From IMG/VR virus record IMGVR_UViG_3300036851_000400, positions 4,028 to 68,027 of that record: a stretch of 64,000 nt of DNA; one strand, written 5' to 3'. The DNA comes from a virus. Position numbers and translations under genes: made by a program. Positions 21,212 to 64,000 of the stretch are shown one piece after another. Within the stretch, counting starts at the first letter, position 1, and each line of letters opens with the position of its first letter. The notes beneath the pieces were generated by a model. It was given only the letters and a program-made list of their open reading frames with translations, was not told the origin of the DNA and ran no database searches.

Positions 21212-22177
21212 TCACCCCTCTGCCCTCGCAAAGCTCTCTTTGAGGGCCGGCAGATCCACCCGCACGGCGGTCTCATGGTCGGCCGCCAGCGGCGCCTCTC
21301 CCCAGAGAATCTTGCCCCCTCTGAAGCCTGCTAGGAGCGCTGGCTGGTTCTGTTCCCGGAGACCATCGGGCACGTCATACCAGGCCACATGTCCATCCTG
21401 GAACCTCCGGACGTGGAGGGGATAGGGAAGTGGGGGCGTCCAGTCTGAGGGGGGGCGGAGCGCCTGCACCTCGGCCGGCTCGAGCTCCCGGAGCAGCAAT
21501 GCCCCGAGGTAGTAGCGGTCCTGCCAGAGGCTCTTCCCGGCCGGGGGCGCCGGCTCTCCGAAGATCAGCCGGGCGCATACGTCCCGGCAAGCATTGGAGA
21601 GAACCGGAGGATCGCCCTTGCTTTTCGCCTTGGCCGACTCCCAGGCCCTCCAGCCCGGCATGATGGCGTAGGGGGTCCACCACTGGCCCCCCTGCCCCTG
21701 TCGCGTCTCAGAGGGCGGCAGACGGCAGAGCTCGGCCAGTCTCGTCTCGCTCCACCACCAGCGTTGTAGCACCGGATAGAGCCGGTCGTACCACGGCCCG
21801 GACACGGACCTGCGGCCGCTCAGCAACGCCCAGAGCGCGAGTGCTGCCCAAGCGACATGCAGTTGGCCGTGCGTTCCGCTGCCGGTCTCTATGGCGCCGC
21901 CGCGTTGGCAGCAGTGACCGACCGCCTCCTGCTCCTCTAGGAAATCGAGAAGATCGGCGGCCGCTCCTGTGATGCCGACTGCATCAAACAACAGGGCGGC
22001 CGCGAACCGGATGCTCAGCTTCAGCCCCCGCTTGTTGGGGGTATTGCCGCCGTCGGGCGCGTCCAGGCGGAAGGAGATCGCCGGCAGGGACTTCCTCGGC
22101 GACCGCCAGGCGCTGGCCACGGCGGCAGCATCCTGCATGAGGCGATGGGCTTCGCGCTGGTCAGGCGGATCAGTCAT
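21212..22177 (-). CDS. Hypothetical protein
   Basis: 321-aa ORF with GGAGGAG RBS. Confidence 0.65.
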   Translation of the reverse strand: MTDPPDQREAHRLMQDAAAVASAWRSPRKSLPAISFRLDAPDGGNTPNKRGLKLSIRFAAALLFDAVGITGAAADLLDFLEEQEAVGHCCQRGGAIETGSGTHGQLHVAWAALALWALLSGRRSVSGPWYDRLYPVLQRWWWSETRLAELCRLPPSETRQGQGGQWWTPYAIMPGWRAWESAKAKSKGDPPVLSNACRDVCARLIFGEPAPPAGKSLWQDRYYLGALLLRELEPAEVQALRPPSDWTPPLPYPLHVRRFQDGHVAWYDVPDGLREQNQPALLAGFRGGKILWGEAPLAADHETAVRVDLPALKESFARAEG

Positions 22178-22562
22178 TGCGGTTCTCCTCCGGTTTGGCG
22201 AAGGTGGTGTTCGGCCGGATCGTTTCGAGGTAGCGGACGAGCTCGCCGTCGCGCCTCAGCTCGGCCAAGCTGAGGGCCTGCGCATGAAGGACCGGATACA
22301 TCCGATCGTGCAGGTGGCGCCGACTCTCCCGGGCCTCGTGCAAGTCCGCCTCTACGGCGGCTTTCAACTCCACGAATTGCGGCTCCAGATCTTTGCCGCT
22401 CCCGTTGCCGCGGAGCGAGGCGATGATGGCCGGCAGATACTTGAGCGTTATGGCTAAGAAGGAAAGGAAGGCGATCCCCATGATGACGGAGGGCGTCTCC
22501 ACCTTGCCGACCGCCGGCAGTTGCAGGACCCAGGTGAGCGACCGGATGACGGCTTCGTGCAT
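22170..22562 (-). CDS. Membrane protein (holin-like)
   Basis: TM segment VIMGIAFLSFLAITL in the lysis region. Confidence 0.55.
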   Translation of the reverse strand: MHEAVIRSLTWVLQLPAVGKVETPSVIMGIAFLSFLAITLKYLPAIIASLRGNGSGKDLEPQFVELKAAVEADLHEARESRRHLHDRMYPVLHAQALSLAELRRDGELVRYLETIRPNTTFAKPEENRND

Positions 22563-22592
22563 GAACGCCTTGTCCCCTCTCTTCCAACGCCC

Positions 22593-23000
22593 TCAGCCTC
22601 CGAATTTCATCGCCAGCGCGATGAGCCCGGCTATCAGGCCATCTGCTCCGATGAGGTATCCCCATCCGGCGTTGAGCCCGGAGCCGCGACCTTCCTGCCG
22701 GTCAATCCTCGAAGCGAGTTCCTTGATCTGTTCCGTCAGGGCGGAGATCCTGCTGTCCGCCTCGGCTCGCGGCATCAACAGCCGCGCCTGGTCAGCCAGG
22801 GAACCCCGGAACTCATTCATCCCCTCAAGGCGCTTCTCGACGGCGGTCTCTGCCTTCTCCACCGCTCGCTGGGCGCCGTTCAGGGCCGTCTGAGTTGCCT
22901 TCTCCATGGCCGTAAAACGGACCTCGTTCTTGTCGCGCTCGGCATCCATGAGCGCGGTAAGGTGTAGCCGCAGGGTCTCTAGGGTCCATTCGTCAGCCAT
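22593..23000 (-). CDS. Coiled-coil protein with C-terminal TM
   Basis: Heptad repeats, then GWGYLIGA.GLIAGLIALA. Confidence 0.6.
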   Translation of the reverse strand: MADEWTLETLRLHLTALMDAERDKNEVRFTAMEKATQTALNGAQRAVEKAETAVEKRLEGMNEFRGSLADQARLLMPRAEADSRISALTEQIKELASRIDRQEGRGSGLNAGWGYLIGADGLIAGLIALAMKFGG

Positions 23001-58800: not shown

Positions 58801-59181
58801 TTACGGCGCGTGGGGATCGGTCCAACATCTGGGCTCCTCCTGCCATCCCAAGCCCTCTTGCCAGCATTGCAGCACCCCAATTGCCACGCGCTGAATTGGC
58901 AGGCCGCGCTCATCGAATGCGTAAATCCAGCCGCGCTCCATGTTCTCCAGGCGTGGCAAGAGATCCCTGAGTCGCGCGGCGGCTTCCTGCCAATTCTCCG
59001 GCTTAGCGTAAACCTCCCACGTACCGCCAAGGCCCCACAGCACGCGGAGCGGAATTCCCGGACTCTCCGTAGGGGTCGTGTTGGTGATCTCTAGGCGGAA
59101 TTCTTTCGGCGCCGCTTGAAAGATCATCTCTTCGGCCTCCCGGTAAACCACGGGTGGATCACACCTATCTCCTACTCTCAT
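58801..59181 (-). CDS. Hypothetical protein
   Basis: ATGA overlap with the upstream ORF. Confidence 0.45.
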   Translation of the reverse strand: MRVGDRCDPPVVYREAEEMIFQAAPKEFRLEITNTTPTESPGIPLRVLWGLGGTWEVYAKPENWQEAAARLRDLLPRLENMERGWIYAFDERGLPIQRVAIGVLQCWQEGLGWQEEPRCWTDPHAP

Positions 59182-59735
59182 CTGCCTTCAGGATAGCATG
59201 GATGTTGGGGACGGGTGGTTCCCGGAGCCCGCGGCGGTCCACCATGGTGATCCTCAAAGACGTCTGGCAGATCAGTCTGTCCGCGCCCGCGCCAGTAATT
59301 CTCGCGAGAAATGGCGTCCTCCAAGGCATAGGCCGGCCTGCAGATCAGCTTACGGTCAAGATCGAGACGCTGAGCCCAATCGTGCAGCCTTGCGGTGAGC
59401 TGCTGACCGTAATAGAAGTTGTGCCCGGCCAAGGCGACCGCGCGGCCCTGAGCCATTGCGACGAGTGCGCGGAGTAGCATTCGGGTCGTGCGGCCAGAAG
59501 CGCGGCGCCATGGACCGCCAGCCCTCCTCTCGAACTCGTCGGGGTTCATCAAGCCGCCGCTGGTCCCCTTCCTCGAAGTGGCCCAGTGCATATCATGCCC
59601 GAGGGCGTGGCACCCGGCGCGCGGGCCGAAGAGCGCCACCAGGATCCAGCGCAGAATCCGGGCGAGTCGCGTTTGGTCGAGGCGGATGTCGGACGCGCTC
59701 ATTCGTGCGAACTCCTCGATAGCCGTTCCTTTCAT
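59178..59735 (-). CDS. Hypothetical protein with degenerate P-loop-like RASGRTT
   Basis: RRASGRTTRML...VFEDHH; TATTAT -10 box 7 nt upstream. Confidence 0.5.
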   Translation of the reverse strand: MKGTAIEEFARMSASDIRLDQTRLARILRWILVALFGPRAGCHALGHDMHWATSRKGTSGGLMNPDEFERRAGGPWRRASGRTTRMLLRALVAMAQGRAVALAGHNFYYGQQLTARLHDWAQRLDLDRKLICRPAYALEDAISRENYWRGRGQTDLPDVFEDHHGGPPRAPGTTRPQHPCYPEGR

Positions 59736-60243
59736 GGCCCTGATAATAGCGCAAGGTGAGGCGGCATGCTCAGGCCGGCATGAGCGAACCTAAAAGCTCT
59801 GCCCGACTGGAGAGAGGGGTAGATTTCTAGCGTGGCGCGTTCAACTTCCAACCGGGGGTGGCTTCAATCCCGAGCTCTGCAACTCCAAGCGCCGTTAGCA
59901 GACCGCAGATTCAGCGGGAGGACGGTGGATAGAGGGCAACCCTTTCGCATAGCAACGTGTTGGCGCCAAGAGCAGCGCGCCGGCGAAGAGTTGTCGCGGC
60001 CGCAAGTCCACTCGAATCAGCAGCTTACGACGGCGCGCAGCCCTGCCTTTCAGGTTGACATAATGCCTATTATCCGCCGCTATGCACATTTCGACTTTTC
60101 TAGAAGGGTCGTAGCGACAGGCTCGGGATGGGCGGTCGGAGGCGAAGCTGCATAACTTTTTCCAGAGCAGCTCTCCTGCTTCACGGCTGCCGGGGCTCCC
60201 GAGGTGGCGGGCTGCGCGCCGGGACTTCCTCGGCGTAAAGTGC

Positions 60244-60495
60244 TTATCTCGTCTCTGTGGTGGGTTCCCCGCTCCCTCGCGGGTTGCGGCCCCAGGATAC
60301 ACCCGGTGTCAAGGTCCGTCCACCGCCGGGCAGCACCCACTCCACCGGCGGCAACCGATCCCTGTGCCGGTGAAACTCGATGAGCGCGTCCATGACGGGT
60401 AGGGAGCCGAGGTCGATGATGGGCCGGATCAGGAAGCAGGCGGGCACCACAAAGGCGGCGCCGGGGGCATGTAGCTCGTTCGCGTAGTGGATCAT
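60244..60495 (-). CDS. Hypothetical protein
   Basis: ATGA overlap; WVLPGGGRT. Confidence 0.45.
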   Translation of the reverse strand: MIHYANELHAPGAAFVVPACFLIRPIIDLGSLPVMDALIEFHRHRDRLPPVEWVLPGGGRTLTPGVSWGRNPRGSGEPTTETR

Positions 60496-60893
60496 CGCTT
60501 CCTTCCTTCCCGCTTCATCCGAGCACGGACGGCGCGGAGGGTAGGCAGGTCTGCGGTCTGCTCGACCATCGCGCACTCTGGCCAGGTCGCCAGCGTGGCG
60601 TCCAGGAGCCGCAGCAGCGCGGCGCGCTCCTTGGCTGAGAGGCTGAGGGAGTAGCCGATCACCCCACCCCTTCGCTTGGCTGGCTCGACAACCCTCCAGG
60701 CCATCGGCACCCCTTCGACGCGCGCGAGGTCGCCGCGGGTCTCGAGGCCTTCCAGGAGGGAGCAGGCGCGGTTGAAGCCGATGCGGTACTGGCGCATGAG
60801 GTCGGAGGGAGCGACGGGGCGACCGAGCTGGATACAGAACCGCCGCACGTCCACCTCAACCGCCGCTGTATGACTTCCAGCTTCAGCATCCAT
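60492..60893 (-). CDS. Small protein with FtsK-gamma-like winged helix
   Basis: PSDLMRQYRIGFNRACSLLEGLETRG. Confidence 0.55.
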   Translation of the reverse strand: MDAEAGSHTAAVEVDVRRFCIQLGRPVAPSDLMRQYRIGFNRACSLLEGLETRGDLARVEGVPMAWRVVEPAKRRGGVIGYSLSLSAKERAALLRLLDATLATWPECAMVEQTADLPTLRAVRARMKREGRKR

Positions 60894-60998
60894 CGGGCGC
60901 CTCGCGGTACAGCTTGAGGGCGCCCGTTTTTCGGATCGCCTCACGCAGCAGCTCTCTAACCGGCGCGTCTTCTGGGAGCTTCAGATACACATCGACTT

Positions 60999-61211
60999 TC
61001 ACCCGCGCCCTCCTTCCGGCCGCAGGGCTTCCGCTCTCTTCCGGCGAAGAACCCGGCGAGCCTCGCGGACGAGGACCGCTCGAACCCATGCCGAGAGCAC
61101 CCGCTCGCCGCATTCCTCTTTCCCCTCTTGCTGGGCAGATGCGGCGGCCGCTGCCTTCATCGTTTCGTAATCCTCGTCGGAGATGCGGAAGTGGCGGACC
61201 TTGGTAGGCAC
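60999..61211 (-). CDS. Ribbon-helix-helix repressor-like protein (leaderless)
   Basis: MPTKVRHFRISDEDYETMKAAAA...LSAWVRAVL; TGcTATCGT -10 box 6 nt upstream of GTG. Confidence 0.65.
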   Translation of the reverse strand: MPTKVRHFRISDEDYETMKAAAAASAQQEGKEECGERVLSAWVRAVLVREARRVLRRKRAEALRPEGGRG

Positions 61212-61232
61212 ACGAAGACGATAGCACGAGTC

Positions 61233-61350
61233 TGTACCCACATGCAAGCATCGTCTAAGTGCCGTGTTTGTGGGTACATGCACGCGGTTGCGCAGTTTGT
61301 GAGCAGGGCACCTGTTGTACCCACAGTTCGGCTGGCGTACTGTACCCACA
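61233..61350. promoter_or_regulatory. Operator array TGTACCCACA x4 between divergent genes
   Basis: Copies at 61233, 61269 (inverted), 61316 and 61341. Confidence 0.75.
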
Positions 61351-61386
61351 GACGACGGAACCGGGCGCACCGCCCAGGAGGATGCC

Positions 61387-61761
61387 ATGACCGAGAACTT
61401 CGATGTCCGCCGCTCCTTGAAGCACGCCGCGCTGCTACTCGCCCTGGAAGGCCTGGCGCTCGCCGGCATGAGCGCGGCGCACGCAGCCGACAAGGCTCCC
61501 CGCCACGTGACCAAGCCCGTCTCTACCATCACGGTCAAGGTTGTCGGCGCTGAGGACTACCAGCGCAAAGCGAAGGGCGCCGATCCGACCCGCACCGCAG
61601 ACGGCAGGCCGGCGCAGTGGATCCTTACCACCCTCGACGCTGACTCGTGCGTCGCCTGGGTGTCGAAGGCAGCCAAGCCCAACGTCGCCACGGTGCAACT
61701 CGATGCGTTCGTGGCGTGTCAGGTGGCGATCGGGCGGGCCGGGAAAGGCGGTGCCAAGTGA
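61387..61761 (+). CDS. Hypothetical exported protein
   Basis: AGGAGG RBS; signal-peptide-like ...AAHA. Confidence 0.6.
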   Translation: MTENFDVRRSLKHAALLLALEGLALAGMSAAHAADKAPRHVTKPVSTITVKVVGAEDYQRKAKGADPTRTADGRPAQWILTTLDADSCVAWVSKAAKPNVATVQLDAFVACQVAIGRAGKGGAK

Positions 61762-62057
61762 GTGCCGCGCTGAAGACGATTCCGAAGGATGCGCGCCTCG
61801 TCGAGCTGGTGGCCGGAACGATCAACGCGCCGGGCGAGCCAAACCACGGCGCGCCGGCCTCCTTCGAGGTGCGCGAGGCATACTGCGCCGGCACTATCAC
61901 CCGCTGGCTTATCATCCGCGTCGCACCAAGCGGGAAGCCTGAGCGGTTTGGTTGGGCAAAGCGGTCTTACTGGTGCAAGCGCGCCACCGGCCGCAACATC
62001 GCCAAGCTCAACGCTCAACTCCCGGAACTCCGAGCCTTGATTCAGGCTCCCGCCTGA
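61758..62057 (+). CDS. Hypothetical protein
   Basis: GTGA overlap. Confidence 0.5.
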   Translation: MSAALKTIPKDARLVELVAGTINAPGEPNHGAPASFEVREAYCAGTITRWLIIRVAPSGKPERFGWAKRSYWCKRATGRNIAKLNAQLPELRALIQAPA

Positions 62058-62135
62058 GCTTTCACGGCGACGGCATCTCCCCCGAGGTGCCGCCCCGCGA
62101 GCGCTCATGCTCGACCTCAGCTCTGGAGGGTTACG

Positions 62136-62387
62136 ATGACGACTCAAGAACAGCGCGAAACGATCCGCGGCATGATGGAAGATTGGGACCGGCTCAGCAC
62201 GGCGGCTCTGCGGCAGCTCGGCGCCAAGGCCGAAGAAGAGCGCCGGTTCGGGACCGCCGCGGTGCTTTTCGAGGAAGCCGCCCGCCGCTATCCCATCGCG
62301 GCCGGGGAACTCGCGAAGCGCGACATCGCTGCCCTGAAGCAACGCGCAGAGGACTGCCGCCGAGGTGCGAGCACCATCATCAAGTAA
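62136..62387 (+). CDS. Hypothetical helical protein
   Basis: GGAGG RBS. Confidence 0.6.
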   Translation: MTTQEQRETIRGMMEDWDRLSTAALRQLGAKAEEERRFGTAAVLFEEAARRYPIAAGELAKRDIAALKQRAEDCRRGASTIIK

Positions 62388-62396
62388 ACTGGTGCT

Positions 62397-62450
62397 GGTG
62401 AGGGCAGGGCTGCAGCCCTGTAAACCACACGCCCCGTCCCAAGTCGGGGC
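62397..62450 (+). ncRNA. Twister ribozyme-like motif 1 (permuted, P1 closed by a hairpin)
   Basis: GGT-GAGGG-CAGGGC/GCCCTG(P1)-TAA-ACC(P2)-AC-..-GCCCCG-TCCCAAGT-CGGGGC(P4); pseudoknots GGG:CCC and AC:GT. Confidence 0.8.
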
Positions 62451-62470
62451 AAACCTAGGAGGAACGGCAC

Positions 62471-63046
62471 ATGAACGCCAAAACTCTCCGTCCTGGACTT
62501 ATCGCTGTCCGCGTCGGCTCGCGATGGGCCGCCGTCGTGGACTACACCGCGCTCGCCATCGAGGCGGATCGCCTGCCGGGTTCGGTTGGGCACCGAACTG
62601 GCTGCTGGTGCTCTGATCGAGCGGGCGGCTGGGGCACCGGCCGCGCCCCGGAGCGCGCCGTCCAGGAATGCGCGAACCCTGTGACCTATGCGAGCATCCG
62701 GGAGCTGTTGGTGGAGATGGGGGCACCACAGCCCACCGTCTATACCGTCATCGTCAAGGATGGAGAGGTCGTGGACCGGGATCTGCATCCGATCGCCCCC
62801 TCGATCCGCAGGAGTTGCGGCCACAACCACCGGACCCGCGAAGCGGCCGAGCGCTGCCAGCAGCACCTTCGCAACCGGCATCGCGAGGCTACCGGGTCCT
62901 GGATCGAGTCGGCCGTCTGGTACAACAGCCAGATCCATGAGCATGCTGGAGACAGCATGGACTACCTCCCGCAGCCGCATTGGTCAGAGTGGGCCGAAGC
63001 TGAAAAGGCGGCCATCGACGCCGCGCTGGCCGAACCAGAACGATAG
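62471..63046 (+). CDS. Hypothetical protein flanked by the twister motifs
   Basis: AGGAGG RBS; CGHNHRTREAAERC motif. Confidence 0.7.
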   Translation: MNAKTLRPGLIAVRVGSRWAAVVDYTALAIEADRLPGSVGHRTGCWCSDRAGGWGTGRAPERAVQECANPVTYASIRELLVEMGAPQPTVYTVIVKDGEVVDRDLHPIAPSIRRSCGHNHRTREAAERCQQHLRNRHREATGSWIESAVWYNSQIHEHAGDSMDYLPQPHWSEWAEAEKAAIDAALAEPER

Positions 63047-63106
63047 GGTGAGGGGCGGCGCGCTTCAGCGCCGCTAAACCACAAGGGCGGTCCCAAGTCC
63101 GGCCCT
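63047..63106 (+). ncRNA. Twister ribozyme-like motif 2
   Basis: GGT-GAGGG-GCGGCGC/GCGCCGC(P1)-TAA-ACC-AC-A-AGGGCGG-TCCCAAGT-CC(G)GCCCT(P4); core identical to motif 1, stems covary. Confidence 0.8.
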
Positions 63107-63146
63107 CCAGAAGGCGCTCGAGCCCCTAGCCATTGTAAATCCGGCC

Positions 63147-63422
63147 CTACTCGGGAATTCGGATGTCGGTTACACGGCCCCACCCCGAGGCCAAGCTTGA
63201 GCTGATGTACAGCTTCGTTTCTCCAGTCGCCGTGTCCAATAGAAAGACCCCTACCTGTTGCTCCCTGCTCGCGACCTTCCGGTCGGCTGTGAAGACATGG
63301 TGGTAGTAGGTCCCCTGGAATAGCTGAAAACGGCCCACGGGCAAGCTGTTTTCGCCAGCGCCGAGGAGAAACAAGAGCGAGAACGCTACGAGAATGCTTA
63401 GCCAGAAGTGGCGGCGGCGCAC
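63147..63422 (-). CDS. Hypothetical exported protein
   Basis: Signal-like N-terminus; GRFQLF...VFLLDTATGET. Confidence 0.6.
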   Translation of the reverse strand: MRRRHFWLSILVAFSLLFLLGAGENSLPVGRFQLFQGTYYHHVFTADRKVASREQQVGVFLLDTATGETKLYISSSLASGWGRVTDIRIPE

Positions 63423-63443
63423 GGAGCCTCCTCTAGGTCGGCG

Positions 63444-64000
63444 CTAGCGAACCAATCCTGGGCGAAACGCAGAAGTGATCTGGATCATCCGCACTACTTG
63501 CCCCACCGTGAAGTGATTCCAACACTTATCCTCCGCATAGTTCATAAAGTTGAAGGTGTCATCCCTCCCAGGCTCTGGGCAAGTATCGAAGCTATCGCAG
63601 GAGTAAGTGGGGCTATCCTGCGGGGGCGTGTCATCAACCTCGTCCCCGCCGGCACAGCCTCCGTTGAAGGTGTGCCATAGACCAAGGTAGTGGCCGACCT
63701 CGTGAACCGCTGTCAAGCCGTAATAGCTATAGCGCTCGTCACCCAATCCGTGGGGAAGTGCTCCCGGGTGCAGAAGCACGCTCTGCCGCTTGTCGTTAGC
63801 GGGAAACGGGAAGCCGGGCAGGCTTCCGTATCCAAGCCGATCAGTCTGACAGACATAGATATTCAGGTAGTAGCGCGGGTCCAAAGCCAACTTCTTGGTC
63901 ATAGCTGTGTGATTGGCGGTGAAGAAACGACAATCCTGAAACCACTTCTTGTTGTTCACTCGCCGGAACTTGGTTAGCCTGAACTGGAACGGCGTTCCCG
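63444..64000 (-). CDS. Partial (3' part) M43 pappalysin/ulilysin-like zinc metalloprotease
   Basis: HEVGHYLGLWHTF zinc motif, GDEVDDTP, NFMNY Met-turn. Confidence 0.88.
   Translation of the reverse strand, partial: GTPFQFRLTKFRRVNNKKWFQDCRFFTANHTAMTKKLALDPRYYLNIYVCQTDRLGYGSLPGFPFPANDKRQSVLLHPGALPHGLGDERYSYYGLTAVHEVGHYLGLWHTFNGGCAGGDEVDDTPPQDSPTYSCDSFDTCPEPGRDDTFNFMNYAEDKCWNHFTVGQVVRMIQITSAFRPGLVR

What the first reader, a model, noticed from the sequence alone, without database searches (positions are those of the whole stretch)
62397..63106. Two twister-ribozyme motifs bracket a single phage ORF: a candidate self-excising, circularisable mRNA cassette
Seen: both intergenic flanks of ORF 62471-63046 share the core GGT-GAGGG-[hairpin]-TAA-ACC-AC-[stem]-TCCCAAGT-[stem]. 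The stems differ in sequence but keep pairing; motif 1 starts 10 nt after the upstream stop and motif 2 directly after the ORF stop. Established: this matches the twister consensus (U^AA cleavage site, GA-GGG pairing with loop CCC, 2-bp pseudoknot, here AC:GU) in a permuted form, and twister cleavage leaves 5'-OH and 2',3'-cyclic phosphate ends, which RtcB ligates. Inference: cuts at 62421^62422 and 63075^63076 release a 654-nt RNA carrying the RBS and whole ORF. Its two ends are complementary halves of a hybrid twister, so they would be held together for ligation into a circular mRNA, like the engineered Tornado system; otherwise it is a 5'-OH-stabilised monocistron. Caveat: a closing P5 stem is weak or absent.
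Basis: partly seen in the sequence, partly recalled or inferred. Interest (0 to 1): 0.92.

Follow-up and report, generated by a model that had tools for sequence, protein, structure and literature searches.

The report
Twister ribozyme pair flanking phage gene
Two genuine self-cutting twister RNAs sit on either side of one small gene of unknown function in a soil phage, an arrangement that recurs in related phages and most likely cuts long phage messages into single-gene pieces, not RNA circles.

Summary
Rfam's type-P5 twister model hits 62397-62448 (52.1 bits) and 63047-63102 (50.2 bits; cut-off 37.6). They are the only two in the 68-kb phage contig.

The unit is not special. In a small survey of environmental phage contigs, the same twister subtype forms same-strand arrays of 2-9 copies. 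In 29 of 42 inter-twister gaps a single ORF fills at least 80% of the gap, and an ORF ends within 15 nt of the next twister in 39 of 41. Stems and both pseudoknots covary.

The best reading is intercistronic self-cleavage, which releases single-gene mRNAs with a hairpin at each end. This was proposed for prophage hammerheads in 2011 (PMC3088659).

The circular-mRNA idea is untested. There is no flank complementarity beyond the invariant core, no RtcB in 5 of 5 phage records and no RNA run. Cargo relatives occur without ribozymes.

This scan has noted twister-bounded phage cassettes before on other DNA. Verdict: new member of a known kind, moderate interest.

The parts
62136..62387 (+). Upstream small ORF (83 aa, no family hit). 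Its mRNA would end at the first twister.
   Evidence: ORF list; no Pfam or PHROG match. The stop is at 62385-62387, 9 nt before twister 1.
62397..62448 (+). Twister ribozyme 1, type P5. P2 is GGU/ACC, P1 is CAGGGC/GCCCUG, and the P4 stem extends to 62450.
   Evidence: RF02684 at 52.1 bits, E 5.9e-08; own model R1 at 65 bits; pair counts.
62421..62422 (+). Predicted cleavage site 1 (U^A of UAA).
   Evidence: Position of the UAA in the model alignment. The U-A cleavage dinucleotide is taken from passages of PMC5408937. Cleavage itself is inferred.
62457..62462 (+). Shine-Dalgarno AGGAGG, 8 nt after the Rfam twister match and 8 nt before the ATG.
   Evidence: lead of 22 nt between the twister end and the start codon.
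62471..63046 (+). Cargo ORF, 191 aa, function unknown. Its C-terminal domain carries a conserved SCGHNH..C motif.
   Evidence: Five homologues, best 67% identity. Invariant C116 G117 H118 N119 H120 C129 in alignment A2. No Pfam or PHROG hit. AlphaFold model pLDDT 77.8 with no PDB fold match at E<=0.001.
63047..63102 (+). Twister ribozyme 2, type P5, starting on the base after the stop codon. P1 is GCGGCGC/GCGCCGC.
   Evidence: RF02684 at 50.2 bits, E 1.9e-07; R1 at 69.1 bits.
63075..63076 (+). Predicted cleavage site 2 (U^A of UAA).
   Evidence: Model alignment; inferred as for site 1.
62422..63075 (+). Predicted excised 654-nt RNA. It would run 5'-OH, P4 hairpin, SD, ORF, P1 hairpin, 2',3'-cyclic phosphate.
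   Evidence: Arithmetic. The MFE fold keeps the P4 hairpin at the 5' end and the P1 hairpin at the 3' end. The end chemistry is that of the ribozyme class, from the abstract of PMC8782182 (listing).
63147..63998 (-). Convergent minus-strand genes: an M43-type metallopeptidase (63444-63998, cut by the contig end) and a 91-aa ORF (63147-63422). Twister 2 lies 45 nt from their end.
   Evidence: ORFs; Peptidase_M43 at E 1.5e-17. No plus-strand terminator-like site was found in 59000-64000.

Best explanation
Both elements are active type-P5 twister ribozymes that cut the plus-strand phage transcript as it is made. They act as gene punctuation.

- Twister 1 cuts between the 83-aa ORF and the 191-aa ORF. 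Twister 2 cuts directly after the 191-aa ORF, just before transcription would run antisense into the convergent genes.
- The P5 permutation splits each ribozyme in half. The upstream message keeps stop codon, GGUGAGGG, the G+C-rich P1 hairpin and U with a 2',3'-cyclic phosphate. The downstream message starts with a 5'-OH, AAACCAC and the P4 hairpin a few bases before its Shine-Dalgarno sequence.
- Each cistron therefore becomes its own mRNA, hairpin-capped at both ends. Its stability and translation are uncoupled from its neighbours.
- The pair here is a two-copy instance of a system that punctuates runs of small accessory genes in related phages.

Shown: family membership, structural covariation, and the regular stop-twister-SD-ORF layout.
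Inferred: cleavage, end chemistry, stabilisation and insulation.
For: 1. Curated-model hits for both copies.

2. Structure under selection. Twenty-five copies were aligned, 24 of them distinct. Of their pair cells, 97.7% form standard pairs against 77.3% after shuffling. Eleven of 18 pairs show changes on both sides, and 0 of 500 shuffles reach the observed values. There is one compensatory change in each pseudoknot: T1 GC to UA, T2 AU to GC.

3. Placement. Of the 27 twisters examined, 23 have a same-strand ORF of at least 60 aa ending within 10 nt upstream. The figure is 5% for 2356 random positions.

4. Arrays. All multi-copy sources are strand-consistent. In 29 of 42 inter-twister gaps one ORF fills at least 80% of the gap. 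An ORF ends within 15 nt of the next twister in 39 of 41 gaps. The median lead to the start codon is 19 nt. The window unit (gap 598 nt, lead 22, trail 0, cover 0.96) is typical. Upstream 15-mers show SD-like AGGAGG or GGAG in most of the 15 units printed.

5. The ribozyme class is interchangeable. In L013 a twister and a type II hammerhead lie on the same strand, and the hammerhead starts where a 294-aa ORF ends.

6. No plus-strand terminator-like site follows twister 2.

7. Precedent. Passages of PMC3088659 report multiple hammerheads flanking single genes in prophages. All ribozymes of three such arrangements cleaved during in vitro transcription, and single-gene mRNA processing was proposed. 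Section 13 of PMC6765202 says the same has been suggested for twisters.
Against: - No RNA data exist for this phage. No RNA holder was listed, so cleavage in vivo is unshown.
- The benefit (stability, insulation) is inference from general knowledge of bacterial mRNA decay, which I recalled and did not test.
- This phage has only two copies around one gene. A general operon-punctuation role is therefore less obvious here than in the arrays.
- The stop codon abuts or overlaps the ribozyme, so a terminating ribosome would unfold it. Cleavage may be conditional rather than constitutive.
- In a secondary-structure ensemble of the excised RNA the SD is mostly paired (unpaired probability 0.01-0.29). 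This does not fit simple activation of translation, though such folds of G+C-rich RNA are unreliable.
- The survey was seeded with patterns taken from this subfamily and covers only parts of contigs. L024 and L035 are near duplicates. ORFs were called by a simple longest-ORF rule. Trail values of -5 can be artefacts of the TGA inside GGTGAGGG.
Confidence: 0.65

Rival explanations
1. Natural Tornado. After both cuts the 654-nt RNA is closed by a host RtcB-type ligase, or by the reverse reaction of a re-formed hybrid twister. The result is a circular, exonuclease-resistant mRNA, and this is the selected product.
For: - Any twister pair leaves the 5'-OH and 2',3'-cyclic phosphate ends that RtcB joins. 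This is class chemistry, from the abstract of PMC8782182 in the listing.
- A passage of PMC12628768 says the engineered Tornado system makes circular mRNA in E. coli with the native RtcB.
- The 5' part of twister 2 and the 3' part of twister 1 keep all six inter-part pairs (P2 and T1), because those columns are invariant.
- The thermodynamic ensemble of the excised RNA predicts about 4.8 base pairs between its first and last 30 nt.
- One of two Chloroflexota MAGs carrying this twister subtype encodes RtcB.
Against: - The end complementarity is a by-product of the shared core, not a matched design. Flanks that would form a ligation stem pair no better than controls (15 hybrid pairs, p = 0.33; window -2.2 against a control mean of -4.0 kcal/mol).
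- RtcB is absent from 5 of 5 phage records examined, and the host is unknown.
- A mixed twister and hammerhead unit exists.
- Perreault et al. looked for circular or spliced products of flanking prophage hammerheads and did not detect them (data not shown; passage of PMC3088659).
Confidence: 0.08
2. Cassette joint. The twisters matter mainly at the DNA level, as conserved 50-60-bp boundaries at which phages swap or insert small genes by recombination. The pair here marks an inserted gene, and RNA cleavage is secondary.
For: - L010 and L012 share 94% identity that resumes exactly at the first base of a twister (L010 6434 = L012 909). About 800 nt upstream of that point are replaced, and L010 carries an extra twister-plus-ORF unit there.
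- L009 and L011 arrays are only partly syntenic.
- Two twisters in L005 are identical over 51 nt although the ORFs beside them differ.
- Relatives of the cargo's C-terminal domain lie in 6 metagenome loci with 0 Rfam matches.
- Cargo is diverse. None of 15 cassette ORFs reaches a Pfam cut-off.
Against: - Mosaic joints at gene boundaries are usual in phages, and I have one clean example only.
- Recombination needs sequence identity, not conservation of pairing. The compensatory changes in stems and pseudoknots show selection on the RNA fold.
- This reading explains origin and spread, not function, and it is compatible with the best explanation.
- Four of the six cargo-relative loci are short or lack an upstream flank.
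Confidence: 0.1
3. Conditional switch. Cleavage is regulated, for example blocked when ribosomes terminate on the stop codon that abuts or overlaps the ribozyme. It would set the level of the downstream gene or the fate of the upstream message rather than acting constitutively.
For: - The stop codon lies 0-10 nt before, or inside, the ribozyme in most units. Trail values of -5, -1 or 0 occur in 21 of 41 gaps, counted from the rows. A terminating ribosome would therefore cover P2, T1 and part of P1 (inference).
- In the folded excised RNA the SD is mostly paired.
- Perreault et al. raise regulated cleavage for phage hammerheads (Discussion passage of PMC3088659).
Against: - No ligand-binding or alternative-fold element was seen.
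- The ribozymes are minimal, at 52-58 nt.
- Nothing here measures cleavage.
- The -5 cases may be ORF-calling artefacts, because GGTGAGGG contains TGA.
Confidence: 0.12
4. The motifs are inactive relics or simple structural hairpins with no catalytic role.
For: Activity was not measured. The outer P4 pair of copy 2 is non-canonical in the Rfam alignment.
Against: Both copies score 12-15 bits above the gathering cut-off with every invariant core base present. Pseudoknot covariation in relatives is not expected of hairpins or relics.
Confidence: 0.03

Closest known systems
Type-P5 twister ribozyme (Rfam RF02684; class described by Roth et al. 2014, which was not held and is known to me only through reviews PMC5408937 and PMC6765202)
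   Same: Same fold elements, conserved core, UAA cleavage site and permutation. Both copies pass the curated cut-off. The genomic setting near phage genes and near other ribozymes is as stated for the class (section 13 of PMC6765202; passage of PMC5408937).
   Different: This is a G+C-rich soil-phage subtype with a 3-bp P2 (GGU/ACC), an AC:GU T2 and no P5 stem at all. It is placed directly on or after a stop codon.
Clustered hammerhead ribozymes flanking single genes in prophages (Perreault et al. 2011, PMC3088659, passages read)
   Same: Multiple self-cleaving ribozymes flank individual genes or short gene blocks of varying identity in phage DNA. Processing of long phage transcripts into single-gene mRNAs was proposed. 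Circular products were considered there too.
   Different: A different ribozyme class. Here the arrays reach nine copies and keep a very regular layout of stop, ribozyme and SD. No cleavage assay exists for these.
Tornado circular-RNA expression system (engineered; passage of PMC12628768; design details recalled)
   Same: An RNA of interest flanked by two twister ribozymes whose cleavage leaves ends that RtcB can ligate.
   Different: Tornado uses designed end complementarity, whereas none is seen here beyond the ribozyme core. Both natural copies are type P5 and leave half a ribozyme on each end. No ligase is encoded by the phage. No circular product has been observed.
Ribozyme insulators of synthetic biology (RiboJ-type) and tRNA punctuation of mitochondrial transcripts (both recalled, not checked in any call)
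   Same: Cleavage between cistrons standardises or separates the messages.
   Different: These are analogies of logic only. Neither is related in sequence or origin.

Membership tests
Twister ribozyme, type P5 (RF02684) | Score at or above the curated gathering score of the covariance model, over the full model length | tested here: met
   52.1 and 50.2 bits against 37.6, model positions 1-58 of 58 for both.
Twister ribozyme, type P5 (RF02684) | [quoted passage not shown] | tested here: met
   All three pair in both copies. Across 24 distinct relatives, 6 of 6 P1 pairs and 3 of 4 P4 pairs show changes on both sides. P2 is 95.8% paired but nearly invariant.
Twister ribozyme, type P5 (RF02684) | Two pseudoknots, T1 and T2 | tested here: met
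   GGG with the loop CCC, and AC with GU, are complementary in both copies. They are 100% paired in relatives, with one compensatory change each: columns 6-58 GC to UA, and columns 44-62 AU to GC.
Twister ribozyme, type P5 (RF02684) | Strongly conserved nucleotides of loops L1 and L4, and a U-A cleavage dinucleotide | tested here: met
   Twenty invariant columns include GAGGG-side bases, UAA and the CCCAAG-side loop bases. UAA is at 62421-62423 and 63075-63077.
Twister ribozyme, type P5 (RF02684) | Termini located where P5 would lie (order: P2 3' strand, L1, P1 hairpin, cleavage site, P2 5' strand, P4 hairpin) | tested here: met
   The order of elements in the alignment fits, and clan competition kept Twister-P5 as the best family. 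A P5 helix is not formed: flank duplex energies equal those of controls (p = 0.50). P5 is listed as optional in PMC5408937.
Twister ribozyme, type P5 (RF02684) | Site-specific self-cleavage giving 5'-OH and 2',3'-cyclic phosphate ends | not testable with these tools
   No RNA run was listed, and biochemistry is not available here.
Ribozyme-flanked circular RNA (Tornado-like or retrozyme-like) | Two self-cleaving ribozymes flank the unit on one strand | tested here: met
Ribozyme-flanked circular RNA (Tornado-like or retrozyme-like) | Ends of the excised RNA carry complementarity that holds them together for ligation | tested here: inconclusive
   Only the invariant core contacts (3-bp P2 plus 3-bp T1) are available. 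The ensemble predicts about 4.8 bp between the termini. The flanks add nothing over controls (p = 0.33; window -2.2 kcal/mol).
Ribozyme-flanked circular RNA (Tornado-like or retrozyme-like) | A ligase for 5'-OH and 2',3'-cyclic phosphate ends is available | tested here: inconclusive
   RtcB (PF01139) is in 0 of 5 phage records. The host is unknown. One of two Chloroflexota MAGs holding the subtype has RtcB.
Ribozyme-flanked circular RNA (Tornado-like or retrozyme-like) | Back-joined junction molecules observed | not testable with these tools
   No RNA holder was listed.

The most novel reading that the evidence does not exclude
Phage cistrons excised by pairs of type-P5 twisters re-form a hybrid twister from their two half-ribozyme ends. 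They are then sealed into translatable circular mRNAs, by host RtcB or by the ribozyme's own reverse reaction. This would be a natural counterpart of the Tornado system and the first protein-coding circular mRNA class of a DNA phage. The evidence does not exclude it, because the core contacts between ends exist in every unit and no RNA data were available.
Probability: 0.08. Interest if true: 0.85.

Novelty: new member of a known kind. Interest (0 to 1): 0.35.

Why it matters
What bacterial and phage self-cleaving ribozymes are for is still described as largely elusive (section 13 of PMC6765202). These soil-phage loci give an unusually clean system for that question.

- The ribozymes are minimal, at 52-58 nt.
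- They sit exactly between a stop codon and the next ribosome-binding site.
- They occur in arrays of up to nine, with diverse orphan cargo.

The window holds the simplest case: one gene between two ribozymes, with no other copy in the genome. That makes it a convenient construct for testing whether cleavage stabilises, insulates, regulates or circularises a phage message. As a discovery it is incremental. The family is catalogued, the flanking arrangement was published for hammerheads in 2011, and this scan has noted similar twister cassettes on other DNA.

Tried and rejected
- RNA evidence. The look-up of sequencing runs listed no RNA holder. It listed one DNA run, from a soil metagenome, which may be the source sample.
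- Cargo relatives in viral contigs and genome contigs. None was found. Six metagenome loci were found, and none has an Rfam match.
- Cargo function. There was no Pfam or PHROG hit. Foldseek against the PDB gave no match at E<=0.001. The ESM Atlas gave no usable feature hit, only weak structural leads to small viral hypothetical proteins for residues 85-165.
- Prophage-end idea. I suspected that twister 2 marks a prophage-host junction because G+C drops after 63100. However, no end repeats longer than 14 nt were found. The only integrase match lies mid-contig, at contig 22156-22629, next to an attP-like site noted earlier (e1-6193792). I dropped this idea.
- Promoter scan of 59000-64000. It found 0 promoter-like sites, so the start of the transcript is unknown.
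- Other ribozyme classes or decayed twisters in the window. None was found.
- Literature. Searches found no paper describing twister arrays that punctuate phage ORFs or natural circular phage mRNAs. Roth 2014, Weinberg 2015 and Felletti 2017 are not held and supplements are closed. Such a description may therefore exist there, or in the supplementary figures of PMC3088659.
- Which G is catalytic. I could not confirm from any paper read that this is the active-site guanine. My own recollection agrees, but it is only recalled.
Full report
WHAT IS THERE. The window is the last 64 kb of a 68,027-bp IMG/VR virus record, rated 94% complete by CheckV. Rfam cmscan over the whole window returns two matches above a curated cut-off, both to Twister-P5 (RF02684, cut-off 37.6 bits). 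They are 62397-62448 at 52.1 bits (E 5.9e-08) and 63047-63102 at 50.2 bits (E 1.9e-07). Both are on the plus strand and cover the full model.

A permissive search of 30000-64000 adds only a chance-level tfoR row. A subfamily model I built from 25 related copies (R1), run without filters over all 64 kb, gives 69.1 and 65 bits for these two sites. Nothing else exceeds 11.9 bits. This phage therefore has exactly two twisters.

They bracket one ORF, 62471-63046 (191 aa), which has AGGAGG at 62457-62462. Twister 1 begins 9 nt after the stop of an 83-aa ORF (62136-62387). Twister 2 begins on the base after the TAG of the 191-aa ORF. The UAA cleavage triplets put the predicted cuts at 62421^62422 and 63075^63076, which gives a 654-nt product.

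ARE THEY REAL TWISTERS. I collected the same subtype from environmental phage contigs with two short gapped patterns and confirmed the copies with Rfam and R1. An alignment of 25 copies, 24 of them distinct, has 20 invariant columns. These cover the L1 and L4 core and the UAA.

I tested a structure that I wrote out with P2, P1, P4 and both pseudoknots. With it, 97.7% of pair cells form standard pairs, against 77.3% after shuffling and at most 53.5% when partners are slid. Eleven of 18 pairs show changes on both sides, and 0 of 500 shuffles reach any observed measure. All six P1 pairs and three of four P4 pairs covary. T1 and T2 each show one compensatory change: GC to UA in L010 copy 2, and AU to GC in L011 copy 3.

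The defining features listed in the Gebetsberger and Micura review are all met. These are the essential stems P1, P2 and P4, the optional P5, two pseudoknots, conserved L1 and L4 bases, and a U-A cleavage site (passages read). The closing P5 helix is absent. Duplex energies between the 14 nt before and after each twister equal those between unrelated contigs (26 copies, p = 0.50). Self-cleavage itself could not be tested.

THE UNIT IS GENERIC, NOT SPECIAL. In the fetched loci the subtype forms same-strand arrays:
- nine copies in L038
- seven in L037
- six in L011 and in L009
- four in L004, L023, L024 and L035
- three in L005, and three across L029 and L039, which are one contig
- two in L010

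Of 26 viral contigs with at least one confirmed copy, counting the window, 12 hold two or more. This is a lower bound, because loci cover only parts of contigs. Three pattern matches (L025, L026, L036) were not confirmed by R1 and were left out.

Across 42 inter-twister gaps, of which three are duplicated between the near-identical L024 and L035:
- every array is strand-consistent
- the median gap is 358 nt
- a single ORF fills at least 80% of the gap in 29 of 42
- an ORF ends within 15 nt of the next twister in 39 of 41
- the median distance from twister end to start codon is 19 nt

The window unit (gap 598 nt, lead 22, trail 0, cover 0.96) is an ordinary member. In the first sample, 23 of 27 twisters had an ORF of at least 60 aa ending within 10 nt upstream, against 5% of random positions. 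Six of those 23 are cases where the TGA inside GGTGAGGG is the stop, and these may include artefacts.

Cargo is diverse. Fifteen cassette ORFs gave no Pfam match above cut-off. Large genes are also bracketed: an SNF2-family helicase in L004 and a 705-aa ORF in L038. In L013 a twister and a type II hammerhead lie on one strand, and the hammerhead starts where a 294-aa ORF ends. The same subtype occurs twice among 185,579 species genomes, both times in Chloroflexota MAGs and again directly after an ORF.

HOW IT MOST LIKELY WORKS. The layout is stop codon, a 52-58-nt ribozyme, Shine-Dalgarno, next ORF, repeated along one strand. This is what one expects of intercistronic processing. The P5 permutation divides the ribozyme between the two products. 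The upstream mRNA ends in the G+C-rich P1 hairpin with a cyclic phosphate. The downstream mRNA starts with a 5'-OH and the P4 hairpin just ahead of its ribosome-binding site. The minimum-energy fold of the excised 654-nt RNA keeps both terminal hairpins.

From general knowledge of bacterial mRNA decay, which I recalled and did not test, such ends should resist 5'-end-dependent and 3'-exonucleolytic decay.

In the window, twister 2 also lies 45 nt from the end of a convergent minus-strand gene pair. No plus-strand terminator-like site follows it. It may therefore act as the 3'-end-forming signal.

This is the reading Perreault et al. proposed for clustered prophage hammerheads, which cleaved in vitro in three tested arrangements (passages of PMC3088659). 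The 2019 review repeats it for twisters while calling the biology largely elusive (section 13 of PMC6765202). I give it 0.65. Cleavage, end chemistry and benefit are all inferred.

THE CIRCULAR-mRNA IDEA. The chemistry is permissive. Tornado-type constructs are reported to work in E. coli with the native RtcB (passage of PMC12628768). The two ends of the excised RNA can re-form P2 and T1, and the ensemble predicts about 4.8 bp between the termini.

Several observations argue against a design for circularisation:
- The end contacts use columns that are invariant in all copies, so any two twisters would do the same.
- The flanks add no ligation stem (15 pairs, p = 0.33; window -2.2 against a control mean of -4.0 kcal/mol).
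- RtcB is in none of five phage records, including this one. Only one of the two MAGs carrying the subtype has it, and the host is unknown.
- A mixed twister and hammerhead unit cannot form a hybrid twister.
- Perreault et al. report not detecting circular or spliced products (data not shown).
- The twister 3' fragment's 5' end is said to be buried in the fold (passage of PMC8782182).

No RNA run was available. Some incidental circles in an RtcB-bearing host are plausible. Circularisation as the selected function gets 0.08.

CASSETTE BEHAVIOUR. L010 and L012 are 94-98% identical on both sides of a replaced segment of about 800 nt. Identity resumes on the first base of a twister, and L010 has one twister-plus-ORF unit more than L012. 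L009 and L011 share only part of their arrays. Two L005 twisters are identical although their neighbouring ORFs differ.

Relatives of the cargo's C-terminal domain occur in six metagenome loci without any ribozyme. Four of those loci are short or lack the upstream flank. This fits the view that twisters travel with, or mark the joints of, small accessory genes. The view concerns origin and is compatible with RNA processing. The covariation shows that the RNA fold itself is selected.

THE CARGO. The 191-aa protein has five homologues, the best at 67% identity. Its conserved C-terminal domain carries SCGHNH and a later Cys. It has no family, no fold match and no usable Atlas hit. Its function is unknown.

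VERDICT. This is a new member of a catalogued ribozyme family in an arrangement already published for another ribozyme class, and this scan has noted it repeatedly on other DNA (866 notes hold the three words). What the analysis adds is the regularity and size of the type-P5 arrays, and the exact abutment to stop codons. It also identifies a minimal one-gene instance that would be convenient for experiments. Interest 0.35.

LIMITS.
- Roth 2014, Weinberg 2015 and Felletti 2017 were not held and supplements are closed, so published descriptions of twister arrays may exist that I could not see.
- The survey is seeded by subtype-specific patterns.
- ORFs were called mechanically.

Noticed in passing
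L004 429-2589; L038 3828-6084: Large genes are also bracketed by two twisters on the same strand: a roughly 670-aa SNF2-family helicase in L004 and a 705-aa ORF in L038. The system is therefore not limited to tiny accessory genes.
   Followed up: partly
L013 3862-3930 (-) and 5254-5306 (-): A type II hammerhead (42.6 bits) and a type-P5 twister lie on one strand about 1.3 kb apart, with two ORFs between them. The hammerhead starts where a 294-aa ORF ends, making this a mixed-class ribozyme unit.
   Followed up: partly
L010 5631-6433 versus L012 332-908: A replaced segment lies between two otherwise 94-98% identical phages. Its right-hand breakpoint is the first base of a twister.
   Followed up: partly
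Many loci, e.g. L004 2534, L007 1063, L011, L029, L038: The upstream ORF often uses the UGA inside the twister's GGUGAGGG as its stop codon, or a stop codon whose last base is the twister's first G. Translation termination and ribozyme folding would then compete for the same bases.
   Followed up: partly
L003 6260-6330 (-): A skipping-rope RNA (RF02924, 45.2 bits, cut-off 36.7) lies about 3 kb from a twister in a low-G+C phage contig.
   Followed up: no
The record therefore looks like the excised phage form, not a prophage with host flanks.
   Followed up: partly
window 63103-64000: G+C falls to 0.56-0.61 in the last 900 bases. This stretch holds a convergent minus-strand M43-type metallopeptidase gene (E 1.5e-17, cut by the contig end) followed by a 91-aa ORF with a hydrophobic N-terminus. 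Whether this is phage or foreign DNA is open.
   Followed up: no
L005 9774-9824 and 10171-10221 (-): Two twisters of one array are identical over all 51 nt while the ORFs next to them are unrelated. This suggests recent duplication or gene conversion.
   Followed up: no
L021 1108-1166; L022 3950-4009 and 4235-4281: The only two matches to this twister subtype among species-representative genomes are in Chloroflexota MAGs. The L022 region also holds an ORF that I read by eye (not checked in any call) as a C-5 DNA methyltransferase, so it may be a prophage and may hint at the host group.
   Followed up: partly
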